Assembly: GCF_029504745.1 (NCBI RefSeq)
Contig: NZ_JAQFIQ010000056.1
Location: 1-12,534, forward strand
Source: Breznakia sp. PF5-3
GTDB lineage: Bacteria; Bacillota_I; Bacilli_A; Erysipelotrichales; Erysipelotrichaceae
Direction: 5' to 3'
DNA: 12,534 bases
The notes under the pieces are model-generated. The model saw only the letters and a list, made by a program, of their open reading frames with translations. It did not search any database and had not been told where the DNA came from. Position 1 is the first letter of the stretch. Each line of letters opens with the position of its first letter. Shown here one piece after another: positions 230-12,534 of this stretch. A program made the position numbers and the translations under genes.

Positions 230-2161
230 CTATTCACTTTTTAAGCATTTCACAAAATTGTCAACAAAATCAGTAATTGATTCACTTTTCATAACTAGAT
301 TTAAATTGGTTGGCTCTAACAATTGTACAACCAAATTATCAAACACATTAAAGAATATCGAACGCTCATTATGTTTAACCGCGAACAATAAAACTATATT
401 TACTTGATTTTCATCCCATTGTATTGGTTTCTCTGATAAAAAAACAAACATGTTTGTTTTTTTTGCGTCCATATTAAATGAATGAGGTATTGCAATTTTT
501 CCAAATGCAGTGGAAGATTCATTTTCACGTTCTAAGACTTCGTCAACATAAGATCCATCAACACAACCATTTTTTCTCATTTCATCACAGATAAAATAAA
601 TGATGTCTTTTTTACTTGTCATCGTTTTGTTTTTAAAAAATAAATTCTTATCCGTAATTTTAAGTAAATTGTTTTTAAGAAAATCACGTTTTCTTGAAAG
701 GTTAATCTTCTCAATTTCATTACTAATTGTAAGTTTATCATTTCTTGTTAAAAAAGGAGTTATTTGTACTTTTGGAATATCACAATTTAAATCATTGCTT
801 GGAATAGTAGAAATTAATAAATCAAATTTTGACCAGTCTATCTTTTCATCATTTGTAACAATATATGAAATCACCATTTCATTTTCAAACTCCGCATTAA
901 TACTTTTAACTAATTTATCTGAATAATCATAATATTGCGGAAATAAAAGAACACATTTAATTTGTTCATTAATAAAATTGCTTTCCCGAATCATATTACC
1001 AATATGCAAAGCTAAAAAGGCCGTTTCATGATCGCTTATCGACGACTGTGTAAACTGTTTGATTTGATTTGATAATTCTACGGCATGCTCAAAGATAAGT
1101 GGACATGACATCTTTATATTTTGAGTAAGTGGATTCTTTAATTCATACTTTCGTAAAATTCTTCTGCGAAGGTTTTTTATATGCAAAGCAAACTTCACAA
1201 TAAACCCCTCATTACTTAAATCAAAATAATCCCAAGCTTTCATATTATCTAATAATTGATTAACGAGCTGCATATCTTCTTCATCAATTAAATTAGACAA
1301 ATCATCCATTTTAATTTTTAAATAATCCATCTTTGTTAAACTGCTAATTAACGTATTTGAAAATTCTTCAAATTCAGATTCTGAGTATTCAATATTATAT
1401 TTTTTCTCAACAATATTCACTAATTCATTTGCAAGATTCACTTCACTATTTTCAGGATGTTTTATAGGTGCATGCCGTGAGATATGAATAAAATTATTCA
1501 TAATTCTATCCATACCAATGGATAATTCCAAAATTAAATTTACCAAGGCATACTCATTAATGAAAAAACCATGTTTTTTCGTGTTTTCTCGTATATCATC
1601 TGCCAATTCAGGGATATTAATCTTTGGAAATATTTTAGAGATAGAATCAATACTTAATACATTTTCTGTAAACTCTTCACACAGTAAAGAACTTAACATT
1701 TTTCGTTTTTGTTTTTCTGAACCTTCTACATAAATATCATCTTTTTCGATACGAACAAAAATATTATAATCTAACAACTTTTCCTTAACATCAATAAAAT
1801 CCTTTTTCACTGTTTCATAACTGATAAATAATTGATCGCAAAAATCTTGTAAATTAATACTTGAAGCATTACTTTTTTTAAGTAGCTTCATCAACATATA
1901 AGATACTCTTTCATTTTTTGTTTCTGGCAAATCATTACTATATTCAATATGTAAAAGATCTACTGCAAGTTCACGATCAACCGTATATCCTTTATTGGTA
2001 GAGTAAATACATTTCTTTATCTTATTGATTTCAGATACATAATTTCTTATAGACTTTGTCGAAACGCCCAAAAGAAGCGATAATTCATTTGCCTTTATCA
2101 CTTCTTTTGTATTGATTAATATTTCTAATAATTTAATTTCATTTTTATTCATTCTCATCAC
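230..2161 (-). CDS. PRD-domain transcriptional activator, LicR/MtlR type (HTH - PRD1 - PRD2 - EIIB(Gat)-like - EIIA(Mtl/Fru)-like)
   Basis: 643-aa ORF. N-terminal HTH (ELSLLLGVSTKSIRNYVSEI). PRD2 His motifs FALHIKN (~H327) and FLALHIGN (~H386). IKCVLL (~C403) in an EIIB-like segment. C-terminal EIIA signature GKIAIPHS (~H560). The ORF-track start at 2161 is GTG; in-frame ATGs at 2158 and 2152 overlap the EIIA stop (2145..2147), so the true start is ambiguous within 9 nt. Confidence 0.85.
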   Translation of the reverse strand: MMRMNKNEIKLLEILINTKEVIKANELSLLLGVSTKSIRNYVSEINKIKKCIYSTNKGYTVDRELAVDLLHIEYSNDLPETKNERVSYMLMKLLKKSNASSINLQDFCDQLFISYETVKKDFIDVKEKLLDYNIFVRIEKDDIYVEGSEKQKRKMLSSLLCEEFTENVLSIDSISKIFPKINIPELADDIRENTKKHGFFINEYALVNLILELSIGMDRIMNNFIHISRHAPIKHPENSEVNLANELVNIVEKKYNIEYSESEFEEFSNTLISSLTKMDYLKIKMDDLSNLIDEEDMQLVNQLLDNMKAWDYFDLSNEGFIVKFALHIKNLRRRILRKYELKNPLTQNIKMSCPLIFEHAVELSNQIKQFTQSSISDHETAFLALHIGNMIRESNFINEQIKCVLLFPQYYDYSDKLVKSINAEFENEMVISYIVTNDEKIDWSKFDLLISTIPSNDLNCDIPKVQITPFLTRNDKLTISNEIEKINLSRKRDFLKNNLLKITDKNLFFKNKTMTSKKDIIYFICDEMRKNGCVDGSYVDEVLERENESSTAFGKIAIPHSFNMDAKKTNMFVFLSEKPIQWDENQVNIVLLFAVKHNERSIFFNVFDNLVVQLLEPTNLNLVMKSESITDFVDNFVKCLKSE

Positions 2162-2519
2162 TCAATTTTAATACTTTCTCCTCTAATTCATTAATTTTAT
2201 TATAAACCGATTCAAAAGTTTTTATTAACTTTTCGCTCATAAGTATTTCACTATTTATTGTCATCAAAGTATCCTGCGCATGAGCAAACAACAATGAATA
2301 TTCACTTTTTTTACCACGCGTTTCATCTTGAATTTGATCTGTTTGCATCTTATGTGCAACTGTAATATTCGTTGTTGCATTCTCTAAATGCTTCTTTGCA
2401 CTTTCAAAATCAAATTCAGCAATTGCATCAATAGCCATTAAATTATTTTCTCTTGCATCACCAGCATGAAGGATGATTTCCATAGAAACATTCATAATAT
2501 TGGGTGTTTTCTCTTCCAT
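2145..2519 (-). CDS. PTS lactose/cellobiose-family EIIA subunit
   Basis: 124 aa. IILHAGDAR...AHKMQTDQI...LLFAHAQDTLMT matches the ChbA/LacF/LicA pattern, with the phospho-His in HAQD. The second His of the usual HAQDH is Thr here. Confidence 0.85.
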   Translation of the reverse strand: MEEKTPNIMNVSMEIILHAGDARENNLMAIDAIAEFDFESAKKHLENATTNITVAHKMQTDQIQDETRGKKSEYSLLFAHAQDTLMTINSEILMSEKLIKTFESVYNKINELEEKVLKLSDENE

Positions 2520-2528
2520 AACTTTACC

Positions 2529-3944
2529 TTATCTTTCTCTACCATTCGTTCTTATTAGTTTTTGATACCAATAAAAACTATCTTTCTTTATTCTTTTTCC
2601 AGTTCCATCACCTTCATCATCTAAATCCACATATATAAATCCATAACGTTTTGTCATCTCACTTGATGAGCAACTTACAATATCAATTGGTGACCATAAT
2701 AAATATCCAATTACATGACATCCATCTTTAATTGCTTCACCAATTTGTTCAATATGTTTACTTACATAGTTTTGACGATACATATCATGAACCTTTTCCT
2801 CTTCAACAACATCAACTGCACCAAATCCGTTTTCAGTAATGAAAAGAGGAAGCCCTGGGTAACGGTCATTATACGTATTCAATGCAACCCGTAACCCTGT
2901 AGGATCAATTTCCCAACCCCATTCACTCTTTTCCAAATAAGGATTTGTGCTTTTAACAAACATGTTATCCAAATCGTCTTTCGAAGCATCGTTTATTTTT
3001 GTGTAATAGTAACTAAACGATAAGTAATCCATTGTATTTTCTTTAAGAATTTGCTTCTCATCATCACTCATTTTAATTGCTATTCCTTTTTCTTTAAAAT
3101 ATCTCAAAGCATAACCTGGATACTCACCACGAATTTGAACATCTGGATAAAGAAATTGCATTTGGTTCTTTCTCAAATTAAATAAAATATCTTCTGGCTT
3201 ACATGATGCTGCATGAGCAATTTTATCACTTAACATTGTACCAATCATAACATCATACTTTAATGATTTTGCATATTTTTTTACTAAAGATGATGCAACA
3301 AACTGATTGTGTGATCCTTGATAAATTGCTTTATATGCATTTTCGTGTTTCGTGAAACGAATACCAAGTGAATCAAAATTCGCCATATTGATTTGATTAA
3401 AGGTAATCCAATATTTTACCCTATTTCCATATAAATCTAAGCAACACTTTGCATAGCGAACAAAATGATGAATTGTTTCTTTGCTATACCATCCATCAAG
3501 TTCTTCGACCAATGTCGTTGGCATCTCATAGTGCGATAATGTTATGATGGGTTCCATTCCATTCTTAATAATTTCATCAATGAGATTTCCAAAGAAAGAG
3601 ACTGCATTTTCATCTGGATGCTCTTCTTTTCCAGTTGGAAACATGTAAGACCAATCAATAGAAGTACGGAATGCTTTCATTCCCATCTCTTTCATCAATT
3701 GTAAATCTTCTTTATATGTTTCATGAAAATGAATTCCTCTTCGCTTTGGATAATTTGCAGTTATATCTTCATCAAAATCAATTTCCCCAAATTTAACAGA
3801 AGTGAATTCACCTCTATCATCACGCTGTGTTTTCTTTTCGAATTTCCGATAATCCGCAATAGATGTTCCTTTTTTATATTTGTATAAGCCATCAGCTTGG
3901 TTTGAAGCAATTGCTCCTCCCCATAAGAAATCTTTTATAAACAT
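2529..3944 (-). CDS. Glycoside hydrolase family 1, 6-phospho-beta-glucosidase-like; acid/base position is Gln
   Basis: 471 aa. FLWGGAIASNQ, FRTSIDWS, LSHYEMP, SFSYYY, nucleophile motif FITENGFG (Glu at 2832..2834), and phosphate-pocket-like WSPIDIVSCSSSEMTKRYGFIYVD. RBS GAGGT lies 7 nt upstream of ATG 3944. The NEP/NEIN motif reads WITFNQIN, with Q encoded by CAA at 3393..3395. Confidence 0.9.
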   Translation of the reverse strand: MFIKDFLWGGAIASNQADGLYKYKKGTSIADYRKFEKKTQRDDRGEFTSVKFGEIDFDEDITANYPKRRGIHFHETYKEDLQLMKEMGMKAFRTSIDWSYMFPTGKEEHPDENAVSFFGNLIDEIIKNGMEPIITLSHYEMPTTLVEELDGWYSKETIHHFVRYAKCCLDLYGNRVKYWITFNQINMANFDSLGIRFTKHENAYKAIYQGSHNQFVASSLVKKYAKSLKYDVMIGTMLSDKIAHAASCKPEDILFNLRKNQMQFLYPDVQIRGEYPGYALRYFKEKGIAIKMSDDEKQILKENTMDYLSFSYYYTKINDASKDDLDNMFVKSTNPYLEKSEWGWEIDPTGLRVALNTYNDRYPGLPLFITENGFGAVDVVEEEKVHDMYRQNYVSKHIEQIGEAIKDGCHVIGYLLWSPIDIVSCSSSEMTKRYGFIYVDLDDEGDGTGKRIKKDSFYWYQKLIRTNGRER

Positions 3945-3966: not shown

Positions 3967-5202
3967 TTAGTCTTCATCTTCATCTGTATCATATAATTCA
4001 GGATTTTGTTCTTCCTCTAAACATTTATTGTCATATATTTTGAAGAATGGGTAATAGATTACACATCCAACAGCAAATACAATAGCAGTCAAGATTATCC
4101 CAGGTACACCTGCCACAAAGAATCCTTGTAAGAACTCTGGACAATACCACATTGAAAATACTTCAGTTGGTGGAGCTATAATCCCTAAACTCATAACTAC
4201 ATATACAATAATTACAGATGCTACTGCATTAATCCACATTGGAATCATTAACATTGGATTCCAAGCAACTGCTCCAAACACAAGTGGTTCATTAATGTTT
4301 AAAATACTTGGACCAATACATGTTTTTCCTAGCATACTTAAACGCTTAGATTTAGCTCTTAACATTACAAAGGATAATGGAAGTGTTCCCCCACGTCCAC
4401 CTAATGCTAAGAATGCATATACAACTTCATCAGTAAAGATATTTGCAGCACCTGCTTCTGCATTTGCAGTAATTGCAGCCAATGCAATTGGTGCTAAAAT
4501 TGGTGAGAATACCCATCCACTAATACCCATTGAATAGAAAATGGTTGGAATTAAATATAATAACAACATTCCAGGGAAAGTTTGTGCAATATCTGTCAAT
4601 GGTTGAAATAGCGAAATAATAAACTGATATAAATCAAAGTTACATTGAATTACGACAAACCATCCTATAAATACAACTAAGAAAATAGGAATTAACGAGT
4701 CAAACCATTGTTGTATAAATCCTGGCATTGCTGAATCATCTTTAAAGAAACTAAATCCACCAAATAAATTCATAAGGAAGGCAACAAATAGTCCAGCAAC
4801 AATTGCAACAAACATACCTCCTGCCCCAAAATAACTAAAATTAAAGAGATGTCCTGTTTCCGTAACCGCAGGCTTTGTAATCATTAAGAATAGTCCAATT
4901 CCTGACATTCCAGCAATGTATTTCATCTTTTCACGTTTCTTGTGTGTTAAGATAAAATACGGAATAAAGAATGCCATAAATATGGAAACAAGTCCAAAAC
5001 TATAACTTCTTATTTCTGTTAAATCTGGAATATCTGGCAAATAATTTCTCACTACATTATATACAGTAATAATCGAACCTACTAATATCATTGGTAGAAT
5101 CTTATTAATTGAGTCTTGCAATCCTGCAACCCAAGGGTTTTGAGCGACTTTGTCCATTCTTGGAGCAACTTTATCGCTCATCCAATTTAAAAATTTATCC
5201 AT
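3967..5202 (-). CDS. PTS lactose/cellobiose-family EIIC permease
   Basis: Polytopic membrane ORF with an EIIC type-3-like N-terminus (MDKFLNWMSDKVAPRMDKVAQNPWVAGLQDS) and an acidic C-terminal tail. The ORF track starts at 5208, but AGGAGG (5215..5210) is only 1 nt from that ATG and 7 nt from the ATG at 5202, so 5202 is preferred. Confidence 0.9.
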   Translation of the reverse strand: MDKFLNWMSDKVAPRMDKVAQNPWVAGLQDSINKILPMILVGSIITVYNVVRNYLPDIPDLTEIRSYSFGLVSIFMAFFIPYFILTHKKREKMKYIAGMSGIGLFLMITKPAVTETGHLFNFSYFGAGGMFVAIVAGLFVAFLMNLFGGFSFFKDDSAMPGFIQQWFDSLIPIFLVVFIGWFVVIQCNFDLYQFIISLFQPLTDIAQTFPGMLLLYLIPTIFYSMGISGWVFSPILAPIALAAITANAEAGAANIFTDEVVYAFLALGGRGGTLPLSFVMLRAKSKRLSMLGKTCIGPSILNINEPLVFGAVAWNPMLMIPMWINAVASVIIVYVVMSLGIIAPPTEVFSMWYCPEFLQGFFVAGVPGIILTAIVFAVGCVIYYPFFKIYDNKCLEEEQNPELYDTDEDED

Positions 5203-5213
5203 AAACATGCCTC

Positions 5214-5534
5214 CTAAGCCTTTTCTTCAAATTTTGATTGTATGTGTTCTAGTGCACTTTCTCCATCAAGTAGAGCATAGTACGACTTTTTCATTACTAC
5301 TACTTTTACATTTTTTCCTTCTACTTTTTCTTCTACTTCTGGTTTAATATGTTTCATATGTGGACCAATCATAATCATATCAACTGAATCTGCATATGAA
5401 TCAATCTCGCTTTTACTACGAGCAGTTATCGATATATCTATTCCTTTTTTCTTCGCTGCTTTACTGATGTTTGTAGCCATAAACCCACTTGAAGCACCAG
5501 ATCCACAAATAAGTAATACTTTTATTTTTTCCAT
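5214..5534 (-). CDS. PTS lactose/cellobiose-family EIIB subunit
   Basis: 106 aa. MEKIKVLLICGSGASSGFMA carries the active-site Cys10 as in ChbB/LicB. RBS AAGGAG (5545..5540) precedes ATG 5534. Confidence 0.85.
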   Translation of the reverse strand: MEKIKVLLICGSGASSGFMATNISKAAKKKGIDISITARSKSEIDSYADSVDMIMIGPHMKHIKPEVEEKVEGKNVKVVVMKKSYYALLDGESALEHIQSKFEEKA

Positions 5535-6246: not shown

Positions 6247-6714
6247 ATGAAAAAGAAGTTACATATAAATTTATACAGATATAGTAAATATATTGTAATT
6301 GGTGGTGCTCTTGCCGCATATCCACTTTATGTTATAATATTGCGCTTGTTGAATCAAAGTAAATATCAAAGCTTATTTCCAATGACAGATACTAGCAACT
6401 ATCTCTTTATTGGCTTATGTGCAATTGCAATTACAGGAATTGTTTCATGTATTTATGGAATTGTATCTTTGGTAATAAATAAAGCAGTTTTTTATTCTGA
6501 ACATTTGGAGTATAAAACATTATTTAAAAAATATTATATTAGCTATAAAGATATGGAAAGAATACAAGAGACAAGACAAACAAAAATGAATATTATTCCA
6601 TCAACAAAAACAATTTATAAAATTATATGTAAAAATGGAAGTTATGAATTAAATAGTTATGAATTTATTGGAATAGGAAAACAATTAGATAAAATTAAAG
6701 GAGAACGTAAATGA
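6247..6714 (+). CDS. Small membrane protein: 2 TM helices plus a C-terminal PH-like (YdbS/YdbT bPH2-like) domain; uncharacterised
   Basis: Strong RBS AAGGAGG 6 nt upstream of the ATG. Basic N-terminus, hydrophobic helices at ~15-35 and ~52-77, then AVFYSEHLEYKTLFKKYYISYKDMERIQE...IYKIICKNGSYEL. This resembles a membrane-flanked bacterial PH domain by eye. No catalytic motif. Confidence 0.75.
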   Translation: MKKKLHINLYRYSKYIVIGGALAAYPLYVIILRLLNQSKYQSLFPMTDTSNYLFIGLCAIAITGIVSCIYGIVSLVINKAVFYSEHLEYKTLFKKYYISYKDMERIQETRQTKMNIIPSTKTIYKIICKNGSYELNSYEFIGIGKQLDKIKGERK

Positions 6715-7127
6715 ATATAAAAAGAACATATTGGTATCAATCAAGTAAAAAAACAAGATTAGGAGATTTATTTATTGAAAATAATACGATTAGTTTTGTG
6801 AATGATGACACAGATTATTCAAAACCAGGTGTAAGGTATATGAGTAAAAGAGCTAGAAGAAATGAACTAGCAAATGATGCAATAAAAAAAGGATTTGGAT
6901 TTTTAAAGAAAAAAGCTACAAAAGAAGTTGACGGGTTTGAATTATCACTTGCATCTTTAGAAAATATAACTATTACTTCTAAAAGGGTAGAAAGCTATCA
7001 CAATAAAGGGAGTTTCTATTATTCAAATGATGTTCAATTTGATTGTAATGGTGAGCATTATAAATTAGGAGTACATGCAGATGAAGAAGATTTTTACAAA
7101 GAATTGGAAACAATGTTAAAAAAATAA
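6711..7127 (+). CDS. Small soluble Lys-rich protein with a PH/GRAM-like strand pattern; uncharacterised
   Basis: ATGA start/stop overlap with the upstream gene (6711..6714). RBS AAGGAGA 6 nt upstream. LGDLFIENNTISFV ... FELSLASLENITITSKR ... VQFDCNGEHYKLGV ... terminal helix EEDFYKELETMLKK. Confidence 0.75.
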   Translation: MNIKRTYWYQSSKKTRLGDLFIENNTISFVNDDTDYSKPGVRYMSKRARRNELANDAIKKGFGFLKKKATKEVDGFELSLASLENITITSKRVESYHNKGSFYYSNDVQFDCNGEHYKLGVHADEEDFYKELETMLKK

Positions 7128-7411: not shown

Positions 7412-9949
7412 TTATTCACTTAATCTTTCCACAATACTTTGCTTTTCTACTCTTCTATAAATAAGAATAGGCAACATGACAGAAATAATTGTAATAATTG
7501 CAACCAACATAATAACTGCGGTTGTTGGGTAAGTAAAAACTATTTTAGCTTGTCCTGCTTGAATAAAGTTACTAATAAAATATAAGAAACCACTTCCGAT
7601 ACTTATCAATAACGCAATCACAACAAGGCTGTATAGTATACCCTCCCATACTAATAGTTTTCGTAATTGCGTCCTTGTCATTCCAATGCTCTCTAGCATA
7701 ACCAATTCACGTCTTCTATTAGTCAGCGAAGTGTGCATAACATTGAAATAATTAAAAATTGCCATACCAAATAAAATAAAACTCATTGAATATAGTAAAA
7801 TTTTTATCGAGTTAATATAATCAATCGCTTCTTTCTCTGCAACATATTTTGCGAATACTTCGATTTTCGGAAGTGCCTCTTGGGTAAAATCTTTATTCTG
7901 TAATCTCATGATTTCATTGATAATATTATGAACTTCTATTTCTTTTCCTTCTTCAACAAAAATGTATACCCTATTAACTTCCTTATCAATTCCTAACTTT
8001 TCAAACCCTGATTCACTAATTAATATATATGGGTAATAAGTTGTGTTAGTAGACATATTTTTAAAATTAGGAAATCCTCGCATTTGTAAATCCAAATAAC
8101 CTCCAAATGTAAATTTTGCAAGCTCTTCATCTTTTCGATTATAGATTGTTACAAGTTCGCCATTCACTTCCTTTGCTTCTTTTTCCATTTTTTCCGAAAA
8201 GACATGGTGTTGCAAATTGAAGACTGTTTCACCTCGAACAAAACTTTCGATATCAATATCCAATTTATTTTCTTTTATAAATGATTCGAATTTTTGAATT
8301 TCATCATTGTCCACAATACGTAATCCGCTTACATATACTTGTCTTTCTTCTTCTATTTCTCCTTCTGCTTTTTGAAGTGGCTTCCAGACTTTATCATTTA
8401 TATTCAAATGTACATAAGCTTGATAAGTGGTGTCCATTGATGTAATTCCATCAATCTTCTTCAATTCATTTATAAATGATTCACTTAAATAAGTATCTTC
8501 TGAAATGAAATTTGAAGCATTCATATTCCATTCTGTCAAAGCAAAATCTGCTTCATTCTTATACATATTGGAATAATCTAAAATTTGAATTGCCATAATT
8601 GAACCAATACTTAATAAGCTAGCAACAAACAATGAAATGATTGTTTTAAAAAAGCGACCGCGATTCTTACTAATATTACGCCATGCCATTTTTCTAATTG
8701 AAATACTTTTCTTTGTCTGAATTTCTTTACTACTAATTTTATTTTTTCCATAAGTATAATACAATGCATCTTTTGGAGATATTGCATAGACTACCTTTAA
8801 CGGCAATAACATACTAATCATTGATATTATTCCTACAAACCCAATTACAATAAATAATAGCCACCATCGGATTGTAATAACTTCACCAATTGCAACACCT
8901 TCATTGGTTGTCAAACCGGATAATAAAAGAGGTAAAAGAAAGCGAACAATCATAAATGATAAACTACTTCCCAAAACTATTCCAGTTGCCACAATCCTTA
9001 TAATCTGTTTTTTTAGAATTAAGAAAATTTGTTTTTTTGTTGTTCCTATTGTTCGTAATAAACCTAATTCACGTACACTCTTTTCCAATGAAATTTGCAT
9101 AATATTATTGATTAATAGAAATACACTTATCACAATAATAGCACACAACATAATTGCTGTATCATAATTTCCATAAACAGTTTGCACTGCTGCATAAGTT
9201 AGTGTATCAGCAGCAACAAATTGCTGTATATCATCAATCGTTTCAATCTTCTCATACAAAATACTTTCTATTTCTTCAAACAATAAATGATCTTGTTGCT
9301 TCATTATCAATAAATCTGATTGATTTAATGATCTTCCACTTTTTTCCAAATAAGGGATTGAAAAGAAAGCACTTGGCAATGACATATGAGAATCTACATA
9401 CTCTTCAAAATATCCACTCAATATAAATATTTCATCCTTTGTATTATCTTTATCATCTCTCAATGTCAGTTCTATTTCCATTCCTATTTTGGGCTTTATA
9501 CCAAGCTCTTCTAACACTTTCATTGGTAACATAACTTCATTCTCTTGGGTAGGATAACCACCATGTATGTTGCTAAATGCTGGCCTATATAGCTCTTTAT
9601 AAGCAACATCATCAACAACTTTTCCTATAAATAGTTGATGATTATCTTTCTCTCCCATACCAACACTTGATTCTTTTCCAACGATTTCTAAGCAATCCAA
9701 TGTTTTCGCTTGTTTATACTGTTCTGCTGTCGGACGATCCAAATAAACAGTTGCTAAACTTCCCGATTTTCTTGCATACATTAAATACTCACTATCTACT
9801 TGCGCAAATGAAATACTAGTAATACAAAACAATAAAATTACTGCAAAACTAATTGCGCCAATTAGCAAACTATTTCGAGAACGATTATTTTTATAACTGT
9901 TTTTTGCAAGATTTAAAATCACTGATGTATTATTATTTTTAATCATCAT
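7412..9949 (-). CDS. ABC transporter permease, tandem FtsX/MacB-type (8 predicted TM, two large extracytoplasmic domains)
   Basis: 845 aa. Two repeated modules: basic N-terminal segment (NSYKNNRSRNSLL / RNISKNRGRFFKT), one TM, a ~215-aa or ~255-aa hydrophilic domain, then 3 TM. The FtsX loop signatures are RELGLLRTIGTTKKQ and RELVMLESIGMTRTQ. ATG 9949 lies 1 nt after the ATPase stop. Confidence 0.9.
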   Translation of the reverse strand: MMIKNNNTSVILNLAKNSYKNNRSRNSLLIGAISFAVILLFCITSISFAQVDSEYLMYARKSGSLATVYLDRPTAEQYKQAKTLDCLEIVGKESSVGMGEKDNHQLFIGKVVDDVAYKELYRPAFSNIHGGYPTQENEVMLPMKVLEELGIKPKIGMEIELTLRDDKDNTKDEIFILSGYFEEYVDSHMSLPSAFFSIPYLEKSGRSLNQSDLLIMKQQDHLLFEEIESILYEKIETIDDIQQFVAADTLTYAAVQTVYGNYDTAIMLCAIIVISVFLLINNIMQISLEKSVRELGLLRTIGTTKKQIFLILKKQIIRIVATGIVLGSSLSFMIVRFLLPLLLSGLTTNEGVAIGEVITIRWWLLFIVIGFVGIISMISMLLPLKVVYAISPKDALYYTYGKNKISSKEIQTKKSISIRKMAWRNISKNRGRFFKTIISLFVASLLSIGSIMAIQILDYSNMYKNEADFALTEWNMNASNFISEDTYLSESFINELKKIDGITSMDTTYQAYVHLNINDKVWKPLQKAEGEIEEERQVYVSGLRIVDNDEIQKFESFIKENKLDIDIESFVRGETVFNLQHHVFSEKMEKEAKEVNGELVTIYNRKDEELAKFTFGGYLDLQMRGFPNFKNMSTNTTYYPYILISESGFEKLGIDKEVNRVYIFVEEGKEIEVHNIINEIMRLQNKDFTQEALPKIEVFAKYVAEKEAIDYINSIKILLYSMSFILFGMAIFNYFNVMHTSLTNRRRELVMLESIGMTRTQLRKLLVWEGILYSLVVIALLISIGSGFLYFISNFIQAGQAKIVFTYPTTAVIMLVAIITIISVMLPILIYRRVEKQSIVERLSE

Positions 9950-9950
9950 C

Positions 9951-10616
9951 TTATCCTACCAATCCATCCTCAATACGAATAATACGATCACATAGTTGTG
10001 CAATTTCCTCACTATGTGTAACAACAATGATTGTTTGTTGATATTTTGCAGCACTCATCTTTAATAATTCAATTACTTCCATACTTGTTTTTGAATCTAA
10101 ATTTCCTGTTGGTTCATCGGCTAATATGATTGCCGGTTTATTAACCAAAGCCCTAGCAATTGCTACCCTTTGCTGTTGTCCTCCTGACAAATTCAAAGGA
10201 ACTGTATGTATCTTTTCCTTTAATTTCAATGTATCAATAATATTATCTACAAATTCTACATCTATTTGTTTTCCATCTAGTTGTAATGGCAACACAATAT
10301 TTTCATATACATTTAATGTAGATATTAAATTGTAATTTTGGAACACAAAGCCAATATTTCTTCTGCGAAAGATTGTCAATTCTTTATCCTTTAATGTTTC
10401 AATATCAGTATCTAATATCGTAACACTTCCTTTACTTGAATAATCCAATCCTCCTATCATATTTAATAATGTTGTTTTTCCACTTCCGGATGTTCCTACG
10501 ATTGCAACAAATTCACCCTGCTCAATTTCAATATCAACACCTTGTAATGCGTGTACTTCAACCTCACTTCCCTGCTGATATACTTTCTTCAAATCCTTCG
10601 TTTTTAGTACTATCAT
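9951..10616 (-). CDS. ABC transporter ATP-binding protein (MacB/LolD/BceA-like)
   Basis: Walker A GTSGSGKTT, Q-loop FVFQNYNL, signature LSGGQQQRVAIARAL, Walker B IILADEPTGNLD, H-loop VTHSEE. RBS AAGGAGA upstream of ATG 10616. Confidence 0.95.
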   Translation of the reverse strand: MIVLKTKDLKKVYQQGSEVEVHALQGVDIEIEQGEFVAIVGTSGSGKTTLLNMIGGLDYSSKGSVTILDTDIETLKDKELTIFRRRNIGFVFQNYNLISTLNVYENIVLPLQLDGKQIDVEFVDNIIDTLKLKEKIHTVPLNLSGGQQQRVAIARALVNKPAIILADEPTGNLDSKTSMEVIELLKMSAAKYQQTIIVVTHSEEIAQLCDRIIRIEDGLVG

Positions 10617-10645
10617 TATATAATCTCCTTCATTTTACTAACTTC

Positions 10646-10681
10646 ATTATAGAAGACAATTATTACAAACTTATAACAAAT
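10646..10681 (-). promoter_or_regulatory. Activator-type promoter of the ABC genes with an 11-bp direct repeat (candidate response-regulator box)
   Basis: Minus strand reads TTTGTTATAAG (10680..10670) and TTTGTAATAAT (10669..10659), identical at 9/11 positions. Seven nt follow, then TATAAT (10651..10646). The -35 position reads ATAAGT (poor), which fits activator dependence. Confidence 0.4.
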
Positions 10682-10705
10682 AAAAGGAAACTTTCAAAGT
10701 TTCCT
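10676..10705 (-). terminator. Rho-independent terminator after the histidine kinase gene
   Basis: Minus strand reads AGGAAACT-ttgaa-AGTTTCCT followed by TTTTATTTGTT. The stem overlaps the kinase TAG stop (10704..10706). Confidence 0.6.
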
Positions 10706-11696
10706 ATTTTGGTAACACAACTAAAAAAATTGTTCCTTTTTCTTTTCGCTTTACTTTTATATATCCCTCATGTGCTTGAACAATCATTCTTGTTATATAT
10801 AAGCCTAAACCAAAACCTTTTTGATTACTTACTCTATTTCCTCTATAAAAACGTTTAAATACTACCGCCTCTTCTTCTATATCAATTCCAATGCCATTGT
10901 CTTCAATTTGAATTTGGGTAAACATATCATTCTCATTTATTGAAATATATATTTCTTCATTTTCACTTGAATACTTAATTGCATTATCAATGATATTAAC
11001 AAGTGCTTCTTTCATCCATTGAAAATCATGAAATAGTTCATACGTATTTTTTTCATCAAAACAAAGCTGAATATTTTTACTATTCGCAAAATCATTCATT
11101 GATAAAATTGCTTCGCGAATTGTTAGTGTCAATGATTGCTTGTTTAATTTCAACTGAATAATTTTTCCTTCGATTCGTGACATTCTAATAAAATTTTCAC
11201 TTAAAAACGACATTGTCTGCATCGCTTTCTCAACGCTTTCAATATACTCTTGCTGTTCTTGGTTAAGTTCTTCCTTCTCCAATAATTCTAAGTATAATTT
11301 CATATTTGCCAATGGTGTTCTCATTTGATGAGCAATATCATTAATTAATAGTCGTATTTCATCGCGATCTTTTTCTATTTCTTCTTGTTTGGAAATAAAT
11401 AAGGTATTCATTTTTTCTAATTGATGGTGTATTTTAGAAGACATATATTCATCATTCAACAATCCAATTTTTATCTTCTCTTGATTTATCATTTGATCAA
11501 TTACAATTGATAATTCATTTAATTCCTTTTGCATAGTATTTCTTTCCACCAAAATCATAATAATCCCATAAGCAGTGATTGCAATACTAGCAAATATAAG
11601 TATTAAATTATGATACATTAATCCATAGATTACAATACCAACTAAAAGAAGTCCATATCCAAGAAGCATACCTTTCTCTTTTATCCACCTTATCAT
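10704..11696 (-). CDS. Intramembrane-sensing histidine kinase (BceS-like)
   Basis: Two N-terminal TM helices are joined by a ~3-residue loop (…GIVIYGLMY-HNL-ILIFASIAI…), with no extracytoplasmic sensor domain. H-box DIAHQMRTPLANM, N-box IIDNAIKYS, G1 IEDNGIGI, G2 GFGLGLYI. The preferred start is ATG 11696 (MIRWIKEKG) with GGTGA upstream, 1 nt after the RR stop. The ORF-track start at 11732 would overlap the RR gene by 35 nt. Confidence 0.9.
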   Translation of the reverse strand: MIRWIKEKGMLLGYGLLLVGIVIYGLMYHNLILIFASIAITAYGIIMILVERNTMQKELNELSIVIDQMINQEKIKIGLLNDEYMSSKIHHQLEKMNTLFISKQEEIEKDRDEIRLLINDIAHQMRTPLANMKLYLELLEKEELNQEQQEYIESVEKAMQTMSFLSENFIRMSRIEGKIIQLKLNKQSLTLTIREAILSMNDFANSKNIQLCFDEKNTYELFHDFQWMKEALVNIIDNAIKYSSENEEIYISINENDMFTQIQIEDNGIGIDIEEEAVVFKRFYRGNRVSNQKGFGLGLYITRMIVQAHEGYIKVKRKEKGTIFLVVLPK

Positions 11697-11697
11697 T

Positions 11698-12363
11698 TTA
11701 ATCACCAAAATGATATCCACTTCCAAATACATTTTTAATATATGCTTTGGAATTCTTATCTAATTTTTTTCGTAATCTACTAATCGTAACGGTAACGCTG
11801 CTTTCATCAACATATTGTTCTTTTGCATCCCATACACTTTCAAGAATTAATGTTTTACTTATTACACGGTTTTTATTCCTCATTAATAAATGCAACACAT
11901 CAAACTCATTGTTGGTTAACGCAATTGGTGTTCCTGAAACTTTTACTTCGCGACGATCAACATTCATCTCTAAATGATTATATTTCAATACATTACTTTT
12001 ATTTTCATTGCGCCGCAACACTACCTCAATTCGTTTTAATAGTATTTTCATTGAAAATGGTTTTACAATATAGTCTTCACATCCACTATCATATGCTTTT
12101 ATCATATCAACCTCATCATCTTTTGCAGTTAAAAAAATTACTGAAACATTGGTATCTTTTGAAAAGTATTTATATATTTCAAACCCCTCACCATCTGGCA
12201 AACCAATATCAAGTAATAATATTTGGATATTTTCTTGCTTAATCATCTGTATCCCCTCATGAACACAATATGCTTGAAACACTTTATATCCATTCTTTTC
12301 TAATAGCAATTTTATTGCATGATTTAATTGCTTATCATCTTCAATTATTCCTATTGTTGTCAT
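11698..12363 (-). CDS. OmpR/PhoB-family response regulator (BceR-like)
   Basis: Receiver motifs IIEDD, LLLDIGLPDGEG, FLTAKD, YIVKPF. C-terminal winged-helix domain (LTNNEFDVLHLLMRN...VTISRLRKKL...GSGYHF). The preferred start is ATG 12363 (MTTIGIIEDD) with GGTGA upstream. The ORF-track start at 12375 is a TTG. Confidence 0.9.
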   Translation of the reverse strand: MTTIGIIEDDKQLNHAIKLLLEKNGYKVFQAYCVHEGIQMIKQENIQILLLDIGLPDGEGFEIYKYFSKDTNVSVIFLTAKDDEVDMIKAYDSGCEDYIVKPFSMKILLKRIEVVLRRNENKSNVLKYNHLEMNVDRREVKVSGTPIALTNNEFDVLHLLMRNKNRVISKTLILESVWDAKEQYVDESSVTVTISRLRKKLDKNSKAYIKNVFGSGYHFGD

Positions 12364-12534
12364 TTTTATCACCAACCACTATAAACTCATCTTATCAAAT
12401 ACCTATTCTTATGTAAAATAATTATGTGAATTTCTATTAGGTAGTGTAAAATATCTTGTGTAAACTCCTAGGGCTACCAACCTAGGATAGATAGCTAATA
12501 TAGAAAAAGGGAGCCATTCCTAGTAGAATTAATT

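What the first reader, a model, noticed from the sequence alone, without database searches (positions are those of the whole stretch)
2529..3944. GH1 phospho-beta-glucosidase with the catalytic acid/base Glu replaced by Gln (TFNQIN)
Seen directly: the codon at 3393..3395 (minus strand) is CAA, giving W-I-T-F-N-Q-I-N where GH1 enzymes have T(F/L)NE(P/I)N with the acid/base Glu. The nucleophile motif ITENG (Glu at 2832..2834) is intact. So are the sugar-binding motifs and the Ser/Lys/Tyr phosphate-pocket region (SSSEMTKRYGF). The ORF is full length inside an intact PTS operon, so it does not look like a decaying pseudogene. Established knowledge: plant myrosinases (GH1 thioglucosidases) naturally carry Gln at this position because the glucosinolate aglycone needs no acid catalysis. 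Engineered acid/base mutants of retaining glycosidases still cleave substrates with activated leaving groups and can act as thioglycoligases. Inference: this may be a phospho-glycosidase specialised for S-glycosides or activated aryl/acyl beta-glucoside-6-phosphates taken up by the cognate PTS. Alternatively it may be a catalytically attenuated binding or transglycosylating protein. A second deviation is WSY in place of the usual W(S/T)R in the FRTSIxWxR motif.
Basis: partly seen in the sequence, partly recalled or inferred. Interest (0 to 1): 0.7.

Follow-up and report, generated by a model that had tools for sequence, protein, structure and literature searches.

The report
Phospho-glucosidase family missing its catalytic acid
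This sugar-splitting enzyme has glutamine where its relatives have the catalytic acid/base glutamate, and the change defines a large, apparently undescribed bacterial enzyme family (also in Listeria monocytogenes and Enterococcus faecalis) that travels with its own sugar-uptake system, so it probably cleaves an unusual, still unknown sugar compound.

Summary
ORF 2529..3944 (-) is a full-length GH1 protein of Breznakia sp. PF5-3. Codon 3395..3393 is CAA, giving W-I-T-F-N-Q-I-N, and it aligns without gaps to the acid/base N-E of five solved 6-phospho-beta-glucosidases. The nucleophile (ITENG), the sugar subsite and the Ser/Lys/Tyr phosphate pocket are intact.

The Gln is a clade trait, not a strain oddity. 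All 235 homologue clusters retrieved in two searches carry N-Q. In a neighbour-joining tree, 147 N-Q sequences form one clade with no N-E member inside it. Both Gln codons occur across genomes.

The clade also has remodelled aglycone-site positions (D240, N260, Y314, C425). It sits in a conserved five-gene cassette: lactose/cellobiose-family PTS IIB, IIC and IIA, the GH1, and a PRD/EIIA2 regulator. By gene order, L. monocytogenes lmo0914-0918 is a member, and E. faecalis has the same cassette.

My literature searches found no description of this clade and no substrate. The most likely reading is an active phospho-glycosidase for a PTS-imported glycoside that needs no enzymic proton donor. The myrosinase analogy is plausible but convergent and untested. 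The WSY deviation is real but limited to a sub-branch of 21 sequences.

The parts
2529..3944 (-). GH1 6-phospho-beta-glycosidase homologue (471 aa) with Gln at the acid/base position. It belongs to the N-Q clade.
   Evidence: Pfam PF00232 E 1.8e-104. It scores below every NCBIfam 6-P-beta-glucosidase cut-off (445 bits against 623). It is 100% identical to a protein of Breznakia sp. PF5-3. AF2 model: pLDDT 87, pTM 0.92, TM 0.91-0.93 to solved 6-P-beta-glucosidases.
3393..3395 (-). CAA codon for Gln184, at the position of the general acid/base Glu
   Evidence: Sequence read. Aligned to N-E of five crystal structures. Q in 235 of 235 clade clusters. Same position as the engineered Gan1D-E170Q mutant.
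2832..2834 (-). GAA codon for Glu371, the catalytic nucleophile in ITENG
   Evidence: Translation. E at this column in 99% of 147 N-Q sequences, the remainder being one gapped sequence, and in 116 of 116 in the second set.
3225..3227 (-). Codon for Asp240, a clade-typical acidic residue directly after strand beta-5, in the aglycone-site region
   Evidence: D in 88% and 97% of the two N-Q sets, against 2% in N-E relatives. Strand 233-239 in the model. Adjacent to the residue aligned with SmBgl Cys241, a +1-subsite residue. Absent from an N-Q sub-branch of about 18 sequences.
3003..3005 (-). Codon for Tyr314 (third Tyr of SYYY), a clade-typical residue at a +1-subsite position
   Evidence: Y in 91% of N-Q sequences against 1% of N-E (Met/Ser there). 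Aligns with SmBgl Met314, listed as a +1-subsite/entrance residue.
3645..3647 (-). Codon for Tyr100 (WSY in place of WSR)
   Evidence: Translation. Aromatic only in the sub-branch of 21 sequences that holds the window protein; R in 99% of N-E relatives.
2670..2672 (-). Codon for Cys425 in the glycone subsite (Ala in 6-P-beta-glucosidases, Trp in 6-P-beta-galactosidases)
   Evidence: C in 88% and 100% of the two N-Q sets; A in 47% of N-E. Role of this position taken from PMC3605045 and PMC10360150.
5214..5534 (-). PTS IIB, lactose/cellobiose family; first gene of the cassette
   Evidence: PF02302 E 1.5e-15. A homologue lies next to the N-Q GH1 in 22 of 30 loci.
3967..5208 (-). PTS IIC, lactose/cellobiose family; a divergent subfamily
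   Evidence: PF02378. TIGR00410 scores 170 bits, below its cut-off of 236. IIC proteins 34-70% identical lie in 26 of 30 N-Q loci; the few N-E loci with a Lac-family IIC show only 26-27%.
2145..2519 (-). PTS IIA, lactose/cellobiose family
   Evidence: PF02255 E 8e-27. Present in 21 of 30 N-Q loci.
230..2161 (-). Transcription regulator with HTH_11/Mga, PRD and EIIA2 domains (LicR/MtlR-type architecture). Its start overlaps the IIA gene by 17 bases.
   Evidence: Pfam domains. Homologues in 25 of 30 N-Q loci.

Best explanation
The gene encodes a member of a distinct, widespread subfamily of GH1 6-phospho-beta-glycosidase homologues in which the general acid/base Glu has been permanently replaced by Gln. 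It is the glycosidase of a self-contained five-gene cassette: PTS IIB, IIC and IIA of the lactose/cellobiose family, the GH1, and a PRD/EIIA2 regulator.

Proposed mechanism. The PTS imports a beta-glycoside and phosphorylates it at O6 (inferred). The enzyme binds the 6-phospho-glycone in an unchanged -1 subsite and phosphate pocket (shown by residue conservation). Glu371 attacks C1 to form a covalent glycosyl-enzyme (inferred from the strict conservation of the nucleophile).

Because no enzymic proton donor sits at the usual place, departure of the aglycone must not depend on one (inferred). Either the aglycone is a good or anionic leaving group, such as a thiohydroximate sulfate, a carboxylate ester or a low-pKa enol or phenol, or the substrate supplies the proton itself. 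Hydrolysis of the intermediate would then be assisted by the departing group, a small anion, or a neighbouring residue such as Asp240.

The remodelled, more polar aglycone site and the divergent IIC indicate a substrate different from those of characterised 6-phospho-beta-glucosidases. Its identity is unknown.
For: Q184 occupies the acid/base position. N-Q is invariant in 235 clusters at 90% identity. 147 N-Q sequences form one clade with no N-E member inside and an N-E sister group. Both CAA and CAG are used. This adds up to long-term selection for Gln.

The nucleophile and the -1 subsite residues Q16, H138, N183, Y313 and W417, together with S424, K432 and Y434, are 99-100% conserved in the clade. 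That is what a working active site looks like, not a decaying one.

Residues typical of the clade fall at positions that Michalska et al. list as +1-subsite or entrance determinants: D240/K241, Q263, Y314 and K316.

The N-Q GH1 is the only glycosidase in the cassette in most loci. The cassette recurs across Bacillota, Coriobacteriia and one Chloroflexota genome, whereas N-E relatives lack it.

The same E-to-Q change engineered in Gan1D is described in the PDB as a catalytic mutant and was crystallised with intact cellobiose-6-phosphate. Ordinary disaccharide-6-phosphates are therefore unlikely substrates.

From established knowledge: plant myrosinases carry Gln here, and acid/base mutants of retaining glycosidases still turn over substrates with activated leaving groups.
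Against: No enzyme of the clade has been assayed, and no substrate or inducer is known. No conserved neighbour gene processes an aglycone, so context gives no hint of chemistry. Asp240 directly after strand beta-5 could supply acid/base catalysis in most members, in which case ordinary substrates would be possible. Two loci carry a canonical N-E GH1 beside the N-Q one, which fits a non-catalytic or auxiliary role. I had no atomic coordinates, so no distances in the active site were measured.
Confidence: 0.5

Rival explanations
1. The enzyme is an ordinary 6-phospho-beta-glucosidase for common beta-glucosides. The acid/base function has moved from the end of strand beta-4 to another residue, most likely Asp240 at the end of the neighbouring strand beta-5, possibly helped by Tyr314 or Glu/Gln263.
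For: D240 is conserved in 88% and 97% of the two N-Q sets but in 2% of N-E relatives. In the model, strand beta-5 is residues 233-239 and strand beta-4 is 178-182, so D240 and Q184 both sit just past the ends of adjacent barrel strands. D240 neighbours the residue aligned with SmBgl Cys241, and Y314 aligns with SmBgl Met314; both are +1-subsite positions.
Against: An N-Q sub-branch of about 18 sequences has Gly, His or Asn at 240 yet keeps Q184, the nucleophile and the cassette. Position 263 is Glu in only 22-30% of members, and 314 is Phe in some. No acidic residue among the clade-specific positions is universal. No distances could be measured.
Confidence: 0.22
2. The protein is a catalytically dead or very slow pseudo-enzyme. 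It binds the phosphorylated glycoside as a sensor, sequestering protein or partner of the PRD regulator, or it acts as a transglycosylase rather than a hydrolase.
For: E-to-Q at this position is the standard way to inactivate GH1 enzymes; Gan1D-E170Q, CaBGL-E163Q and BglA-E166Q were crystallised with ligands. Two Lachnospiraceae/Eubacterium cassettes contain a canonical Gan1D-like N-E GH1 beside the N-Q gene. The cassette always carries a PRD regulator that must sense substrate availability.
Against: In most of the 30 N-Q loci no second glycosidase lies in or beside the cassette. PTS import without hydrolysis would accumulate a sugar phosphate. The nucleophile Glu and every -1 subsite residue are invariant over sequences as little as 36% identical, which binding alone would not require.
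Confidence: 0.15
3. The enzyme is specifically a bacterial phospho-myrosinase. The cassette imports glucosinolates, and the N-Q enzyme cleaves glucosinolate-6-phosphate.
For: Gln at the acid/base position as in plant myrosinases (established knowledge). Loss of a negative charge, together with conserved basic residues at 258, 259 and 316 in the window's branch, would suit an anionic aglycone. PTS-dependent sinigrin degradation by a GH1 exists in Companilactobacillus farciminis (PMC8660893). lmo0917 is induced in soil extract (PMC3179493).
Against: The relation to myrosinases is not phylogenetic; the best sequence and fold matches are bacterial 6-P-beta-glucosidases. The published sinigrin system uses a Bgl-type IIBCA PTS, not a lactose/cellobiose-type one, and its GH1 is reported as about 50% identical to E. 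coli BglA/AscB. The clade is common in hosts and habitats without obvious Brassicales input, such as L. monocytogenes, E. faecalis, Tetragenococcus and the marine Pelolinea. The basic residues are not conserved across the clade; position 316 is Gln in the Listeria branch.
Confidence: 0.1
4. The Gln is a sequencing error or a recent inactivating mutation in a decaying gene.
For: CAA differs from GAA by one base.
Against: Every one of 235 homologue clusters and 32 genomic loci has Gln, encoded by either codon. The ORF is full length and the operon is intact.
Confidence: 0.01

Closest known systems
GH1 6-phospho-beta-glucosidases (EC 3.2.1.86), e.g. B. licheniformis 6wgd, S. pneumoniae BglA-2 (4ipl), E. 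coli BglA (2xhy), L. plantarum Pbg1 (3qom), S. mutans Bgl (3pn8)
   Same: Same fold (TM 0.91-0.93), with 39-45% identity in the Foldseek alignments. The nucleophile motif, the -1 subsite and the Ser/Lys/Tyr phosphate pocket are the same. They are also PTS-coupled.
   Different: Gln replaces the acid/base Glu, which is invariant in the 133 N-E relatives examined. The +1 subsite is remodelled (D240, N260, Q263, Y314). Cys replaces Ala at 425. In the window's branch the loop after N-Q-I-N is shorter. The protein scores below all NCBIfam cut-offs for the named subfamilies. It has its own lactose/cellobiose-type PTS cassette rather than a Bgl-type one.
Plant myrosinases (GH1 thioglucosidases, EC 3.2.1.147)
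   Same: GH1 fold, an intact nucleophile, and Gln at the acid/base position (the last from established knowledge; no myrosinase was aligned here).
   Different: The window protein is not closely related to myrosinases. They do not appear among the 60 best PDB sequence matches or the 50 best fold matches. It has a 6-phosphate pocket, is cytoplasmic and is PTS-coupled. The sulfate- and ascorbate-binding residues of myrosinase were not compared.
Engineered acid/base mutants of GH1 enzymes (Gan1D-E170Q, CaBGL-E163Q, BglA-E166Q; thioglycoligases)
   Same: The identical substitution at the identical motif position: WVTLNEQNIF becomes WVTLNQQNIF in Gan1D.
   Different: Those are laboratory knock-downs used to trap substrates. 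Here the substitution is natural, ancient and selected, and it comes with other active-site changes.
Listeria monocytogenes lmo0914-lmo0918 (PTS IIB, IIC, IIA, 'beta-glucosidase' lmo0917, PRD regulator)
   Same: Same five-gene cassette. The GH1 is 50% identical to the window protein and carries W-I-V-I-N-Q-I-N. Transcriptome papers report lmo0917 induced in soil extract and lmo0915 induced in mouse spleen.
   Different: It belongs to a different sub-branch (WTR, Cys241, Gln316). I assigned the lmo numbers from gene order and neighbour annotation, not from the EGD-e record. No substrate or enzymology was found for it.

Membership tests
Glycoside hydrolase family 1 (Pfam PF00232) | Full-length match to the GH1 profile and a (beta/alpha)8 fold | tested here: met
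   PF00232 E 1.8e-104 over residues 2-468. AF2 model TM 0.91-0.93 to solved GH1 enzymes.
Glycoside hydrolase family 1 (retaining mechanism) | Catalytic nucleophile Glu in the (I/V)TENG motif | tested here: met
   E371 in ITENG, conserved in the clade.
Glycoside hydrolase family 1 (retaining mechanism) | General acid/base Glu in the T(F/L)NE(P/I) motif | tested here: not met
   Q184 aligns to this Glu in five crystal structures. E is 100% in the 133 N-E relatives.
6-phospho-beta-glucosidase (EC 3.2.1.86) subfamily | Ser/Lys/Tyr phosphate-binding pocket (S432, K438, Y440 of LpPbg1) | tested here: met
   The query segment S-C-S-S-S-E-M-T-K-R-Y-G aligns to the 3qom segment A-A-S-T-G-Q-M-S-K-R-Y-G, which holds LpPbg1's phosphate-binding S432, K438 and Y440. 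Query K432 and Y434 are the Lys and Tyr equivalents and are 99% conserved in the clade, as is S424.
6-phospho-beta-glucosidase (EC 3.2.1.86) subfamily | Score above the curated NCBIfam cut-off of a named subfamily model | tested here: not met
   Best hit NF007356 scores 444.8 bits against a cut-off of 623. All eight models are below cut-off. Sources name clade members only 'glycoside hydrolase family 1 protein'.
6-phospho-beta-glucosidase (EC 3.2.1.86) subfamily | Hydrolysis of cellobiose-6P or aryl-beta-glucoside-6P | not testable with these tools
   Needs enzyme assays.
Myrosinase (thioglucosidase, EC 3.2.1.147) | Gln at the acid/base position with an intact nucleophile | tested here: met
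   Q184 and E371. That myrosinases have this Gln is established knowledge and was not re-tested.
Myrosinase (thioglucosidase, EC 3.2.1.147) | Closest relationship to the plant or insect myrosinase lineage | tested here: not met
   The best PDB sequence and fold matches are bacterial 6-P-beta-glucosidases, and no myrosinase appears in the lists shown. The sister group in the tree is N-E bacterial enzymes.
Myrosinase (thioglucosidase, EC 3.2.1.147) | Sulfate- and ascorbate-binding Arg residues; glucosinolate hydrolysis | not tested
   No myrosinase sequence was available for a residue-level alignment, and activity needs assays.
Lactose/cellobiose-family PTS (cassette partners) | Separate IIA (PF02255), IIB (PF02302) and IIC (PF02378) proteins | tested here: met
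   The IIC scores below the NCBIfam cellobiose, lactose and chitobiose cut-offs, so its specificity is undefined.
PRD-containing PTS-controlled activators (LicR/MtlR type) | N-terminal HTH/Mga domains, a PRD and a C-terminal EIIA2 domain | tested here: met
   HTH_11, Mga, PRD and PTS_EIIA_2 in ORF 230..2161. DNA binding and phosphorylation were not testable.

The most novel reading that the evidence does not exclude
A large, unrecognised family of PTS-coupled GH1 enzymes in Bacillota, including L. monocytogenes Lmo0917 and an E. faecalis orthologue, works without an enzymic general acid/base. It cleaves a class of imported glycoside-6-phosphates with self-activating or anionic aglycones, for example thioglucosides such as glucosinolates, 1-O-acyl-glucose esters or similar plant or soil metabolites. 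This would be a bacterial, convergent counterpart of the myrosinase solution and would define a new substrate class for the phosphotransferase system.
Probability: 0.4. Interest if true: 0.8.

Novelty: new variant of a known kind. Interest (0 to 1): 0.66.

Why it matters
GH1 is one of the best-studied glycosidase families. Its two-glutamate mechanism is textbook, and the only widely cited natural loss of the acid/base is in plant myrosinases. A second, independent and much more widespread loss in cytoplasmic bacterial phospho-glycosidases would matter in three ways.

First, it would reveal a class of PTS substrates that current annotation ('6-phospho-beta-glucosidase' or 'GH1 protein') hides. 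Second, it would give a concrete candidate for unexplained bacterial metabolism of activated plant glycosides in gut and soil. Third, it would assign a testable function to a cassette of L. monocytogenes that transcriptome studies report as induced in soil extract and in infected mice.

It also provides a natural experiment on how a retaining glycosidase compensates for a missing acid/base. That is relevant to the design of thioglycoligases and glycosynthases.

Tried and rejected
1. **Singleton or sequencing error:** rejected, because every homologue cluster carries N-Q and both Gln codons occur.

2. **Universal replacement acid:** I screened clade-specific positions. D240 is the best candidate, but a sub-branch lacks it. 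E263 and Y314 are not universal. No single substitute residue can therefore be claimed.

3. **Clues from gene neighbours:** clustering all flanking ORFs of 30 N-Q loci found only the PTS genes, the regulator and, in six loci, an HPr-like gene. There is no aglycone-processing enzyme, sulfatase or beta-phosphoglucomutase. Neither the glucosinolate idea nor a phosphorolysis idea gains support.

4. **Literature:** ten full-text searches found no description of a bacterial N-Q GH1 clade. The ten L. plantarum GH1 proteins studied in PMC11978721 are all reported with the N-E motif. The J Agric Food Chem 2022 paper on the myrosinase-like activity of L. plantarum GH1 proteins is not held in the library.

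5. **Regulatory RNA or cre site:** there is no Rfam hit and no convincing cre box in the window. The promoter and terminator scans were uninformative.

6. **Active-site geometry:** the structure tool returns no coordinates, so no distances were measured.

7. **Genome scan:** It therefore samples the taxonomic distribution of the clade rather than listing it in full.
Full report
**What is in the window.** The window comes from Breznakia sp. PF5-3 (Erysipelotrichia). The product of ORF 2529..3944 on the minus strand is 100% identical to a protein deposited under that name, and the DNA is about 29% G+C. Five consecutive minus-strand genes form an operon-like block:
- PTS IIB, 5214..5534;
- PTS IIC, 3967..5208;
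- the GH1 gene, 2529..3944;
- PTS IIA of the lactose/cellobiose family, 2145..2519;
- a regulator with HTH_11/Mga, PRD and EIIA2 domains, 230..2161.

Upstream lie two small plus-strand ORFs with no family match. Beyond them, on the minus strand, is an ABC transporter with a two-component system. These appear unrelated to the finding.

The minus-strand read at 3430..3360 is ...tgg att acc ttt aat caa atc aat.... The CAA occupies 3395..3393 and encodes residue 184. The translation contains WITFNQIN, FRTSIDWSY, LSHYEMP, SYYY, ITENG and SCSSSEMTKRYGF. In phmmer alignments to five solved 6-phospho-beta-glucosidases (6wgd, 4ipl, 8ysv, 2xhy, 3qom), N183-Q184 lies opposite N-E with no gap in the motif. 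In LpPbg1 (3qom) that Glu is the residue the authors call Glu180, which deprotonates the water in the second step (PMC3605045).

The protein matches Pfam GH1 end to end. An AlphaFold2 model built on 15 clade members has pLDDT 87 and pTM 0.92. It superposes on solved 6-phospho-beta-glucosidases with TM 0.91-0.93.

**The Gln is a clade character.**
- The 120 best homologues of the window protein, 50-100% identical, all have Q at this column.
- A second search seeded with the Listeria member returned 115 further clusters, again all Q.
- Among about 90 full-length representatives of 50%-identity clusters, only three, the query among them, are N-Q. The rest are N-E or rare other variants.
- In a neighbour-joining tree of 297 sequences, the 147 N-Q sequences form one clade with no other sequence inside it. 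Its sister group is eleven N-E enzymes. Identity within the clade falls to 36%. The tree is a simple distance tree without bootstrap support.
- In genomic loci the codon is CAA 22 times and CAG 10 times.

Together these results rule out an error or a recent lesion. They show selection for Gln over a long time.

**What else marks the clade.** I compared 147 N-Q with 133 N-E sequences.
- The nucleophile and the glycone and phosphate-pocket residues are conserved at 99-100% in both groups.
- Residues that separate the groups are T94, D240, N260, M262, Y314, Y358 and C425.
- In the window's branch, basic residues at 241, 258, 259 and 316 are also typical.

I mapped these through the 3qom alignment onto the residue lists of Michalska et al.:
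- K241 aligns with SmBgl Cys241.
- Q263 aligns with LpPbg1 Arg267, which hydrogen-bonds the +1 glucose.
- Y314 aligns with SmBgl Met314.
- K316 aligns with SmBgl Phe316.

All four are named there as +1-subsite or entrance residues. C425 sits where 6-phospho-beta-glucosidases have Ala and 6-phospho-beta-galactosidases have Trp. So the change at 184 is accompanied by a rebuilt, more polar aglycone site and a small change next to O4 of the glycone.

**The WSY deviation.** It is real but limited to a sub-branch of 21 sequences that includes the window protein (F 11, Y 9, R 1). Another group of eight has Leu, and the rest of the clade keeps Arg. I have no explanation for it.

**Genomic context.** In 30 loci that carry an N-Q gene, clustering of all flanking ORFs found only four recurrent partners: IIC in 26 loci, the regulator in 25, IIB in 22 and IIA in 21. 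An HPr-like gene occurs in six. The IIC proteins are 34-70% identical to the window's in most loci. Three N-Q loci have a more distant lactose/cellobiose-type IIC. Of about 50 N-E loci from the same scan, only three have any lactose/cellobiose-type PTS nearby, with IIC identity of 26-27%.

The window IIC falls below the NCBIfam cut-offs for cellobiose, lactose and chitobiose transporters. The cassette occurs in Bacilli, Clostridia, Erysipelotrichia, Coriobacteriia (Collinsella, Atopobium) and Pelolinea submarina of the Chloroflexota. Two loci, one from a Lachnospiraceae genome and one from Eubacterium sp. TM05-53, carry an additional Gan1D-like GH1 with a normal N-E motif directly upstream of the N-Q gene.

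**Members in model organisms.** A record of L. monocytogenes NCTC7974 has the cassette between a succinate-semialdehyde dehydrogenase gene and the vga/lin ABC-F gene. Its GH1 reads WIVINQINLI. By gene order this is lmo0914-lmo0918, with lmo0917 as the GH1. This assignment is my inference. It fits the published descriptions of lmo0915 as a IIC and lmo0917 as a beta-glucosidase.

The protein cluster holds 2249 member sequences. lmo0917 rose within 15 minutes in soil extract, confirmed by qRT-PCR (PMC3179493). lmo0915 was induced in mouse spleen and is listed as specific to L. monocytogenes (PMC2679221). E. faecalis carries the same cassette between recA and rny. I found no substrate, enzymology or comment on the missing acid/base for any member.

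**How it most likely works.** Three things are shown:
- a complete, strongly conserved glycone and phosphate site with the nucleophile;
- no carboxylate at the acid/base position;
- a dedicated PTS and regulator.

From established glycosidase chemistry, an acid/base-less retaining enzyme forms the glycosyl-enzyme efficiently only when the leaving group needs no protonation. It then needs some help for the hydrolysis step. Ascorbate gives that help in myrosinase, and added anions do so in engineered mutants.

Direct support that this substitution disables ordinary substrates comes from the PDB. Gan1D-E170Q differs from wild type exactly at N-E to N-Q. It is titled a catalytic mutant and was solved with intact cellobiose-6-phosphate.

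I therefore favour an active enzyme for a PTS-imported glycoside with an activated, anionic or self-protonating aglycone (confidence about 0.5). Within that reading, glucosinolates are one candidate with no specific support (about 0.1).

The main rival is relocation of the acid/base to Asp240. This residue sits directly after strand beta-5, next to strand beta-4, which ends just before N183-Q184. It is conserved in 88-97% of members. A sub-branch of about 18 N-Q sequences has Gly, His or Asn there, so it cannot explain the clade as a whole (about 0.22).

A non-catalytic sensor or binding role (about 0.15) fits the two loci with an extra N-E enzyme. It fits poorly with the invariant nucleophile and with the N-Q protein being the only glycosidase in most cassettes.

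**Comparison with what is known.** The protein is a GH1 member by sequence and fold. It fails one defining mechanistic feature of the family, the acid/base Glu, and it fails the curated cut-offs of the named 6-phospho-beta-glucosidase subfamilies. It should not be filed as an ordinary EC 3.2.1.86 enzyme.

It resembles myrosinases in one residue only and is not related to them more closely than any bacterial GH1. I therefore rate it a new variant of a known kind: a natural, ancient, widespread acid/base-less lineage of phospho-glycosidases with its own transport cassette.

**Limits.**
- The literature check covered open-access full text and ten queries, so prior description in a subscription journal cannot be excluded.
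- No coordinates were available for distance measurements.
- The tree is neighbour-joining without support values.

Noticed in passing
window 7412..12375 (-): A four-gene module: a response regulator (11698..12375; Response_reg + Trans_reg_C), a histidine kinase (10704..11732), an ABC ATPase (9951..10616) and an 845-aa FtsX-type permease (7412..9949). The architecture recalls Bce-type peptide-antibiotic sensing and efflux modules (from memory). It appears unrelated to the GH1 cassette.
   Followed up: partly
window 6247..6714 and 6711..7127 (+): Two small ORFs (155 and 138 aa) that overlap by four bases lie on the opposite strand, between the PTS cassette and the ABC module. They have no match in Pfam, NCBIfam or PHROGs. 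GC skew turns positive here, in line with their opposite orientation.
   Followed up: partly
L014 5413..6834 and L018 5487..6908: In a Lachnospiraceae MAG and in Eubacterium sp. TM05-53, the cassette holds a second GH1 directly upstream of the N-Q gene. This second gene is Gan1D-like with a normal N-E motif (TTINEQSII, ITENG; E about 1e-146 to PDB 4ze4). It could mean sequential action on a substrate with two glycosidic bonds, or division of labour.
   Followed up: partly
L004 9513..9785 (Bacillus haynesii) and five other N-Q loci: A dedicated HPr-like gene (PF00381, E 9e-30) sits inside or beside the N-Q cassette in six of 30 loci.
   Followed up: partly
P0292: A protein 78% identical to the Listeria N-Q enzyme is deposited as a hypothetical protein of the moth Spodoptera exigua. 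This is most likely bacterial (Enterococcus-like) contamination of the insect assembly rather than an insect gene.
   Followed up: no
NZ_CP030101.1 (2.9 Mb) and NZ_LR134399.1 (394 kb) in the plasmid collection: These Listeria monocytogenes records are filed as plasmids but carry core chromosomal genes such as coaA and the lmo0912-0922 region. They look like chromosome or chromosome fragments labelled as plasmids.
   Followed up: no
window 3645..3647 (-), residue Y100: The Arg of the W-x-R motif is conserved in 99% of N-E relatives. It is Tyr or Phe in the 21-sequence sub-branch that includes the window protein, and Leu in another eight N-Q sequences. No explanation was found.
   Followed up: partly
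P0077 (560 aa): One N-Q clade member is annotated about 80 residues longer than the rest. This may be a mis-called start or an N-terminal extension.
   Followed up: no
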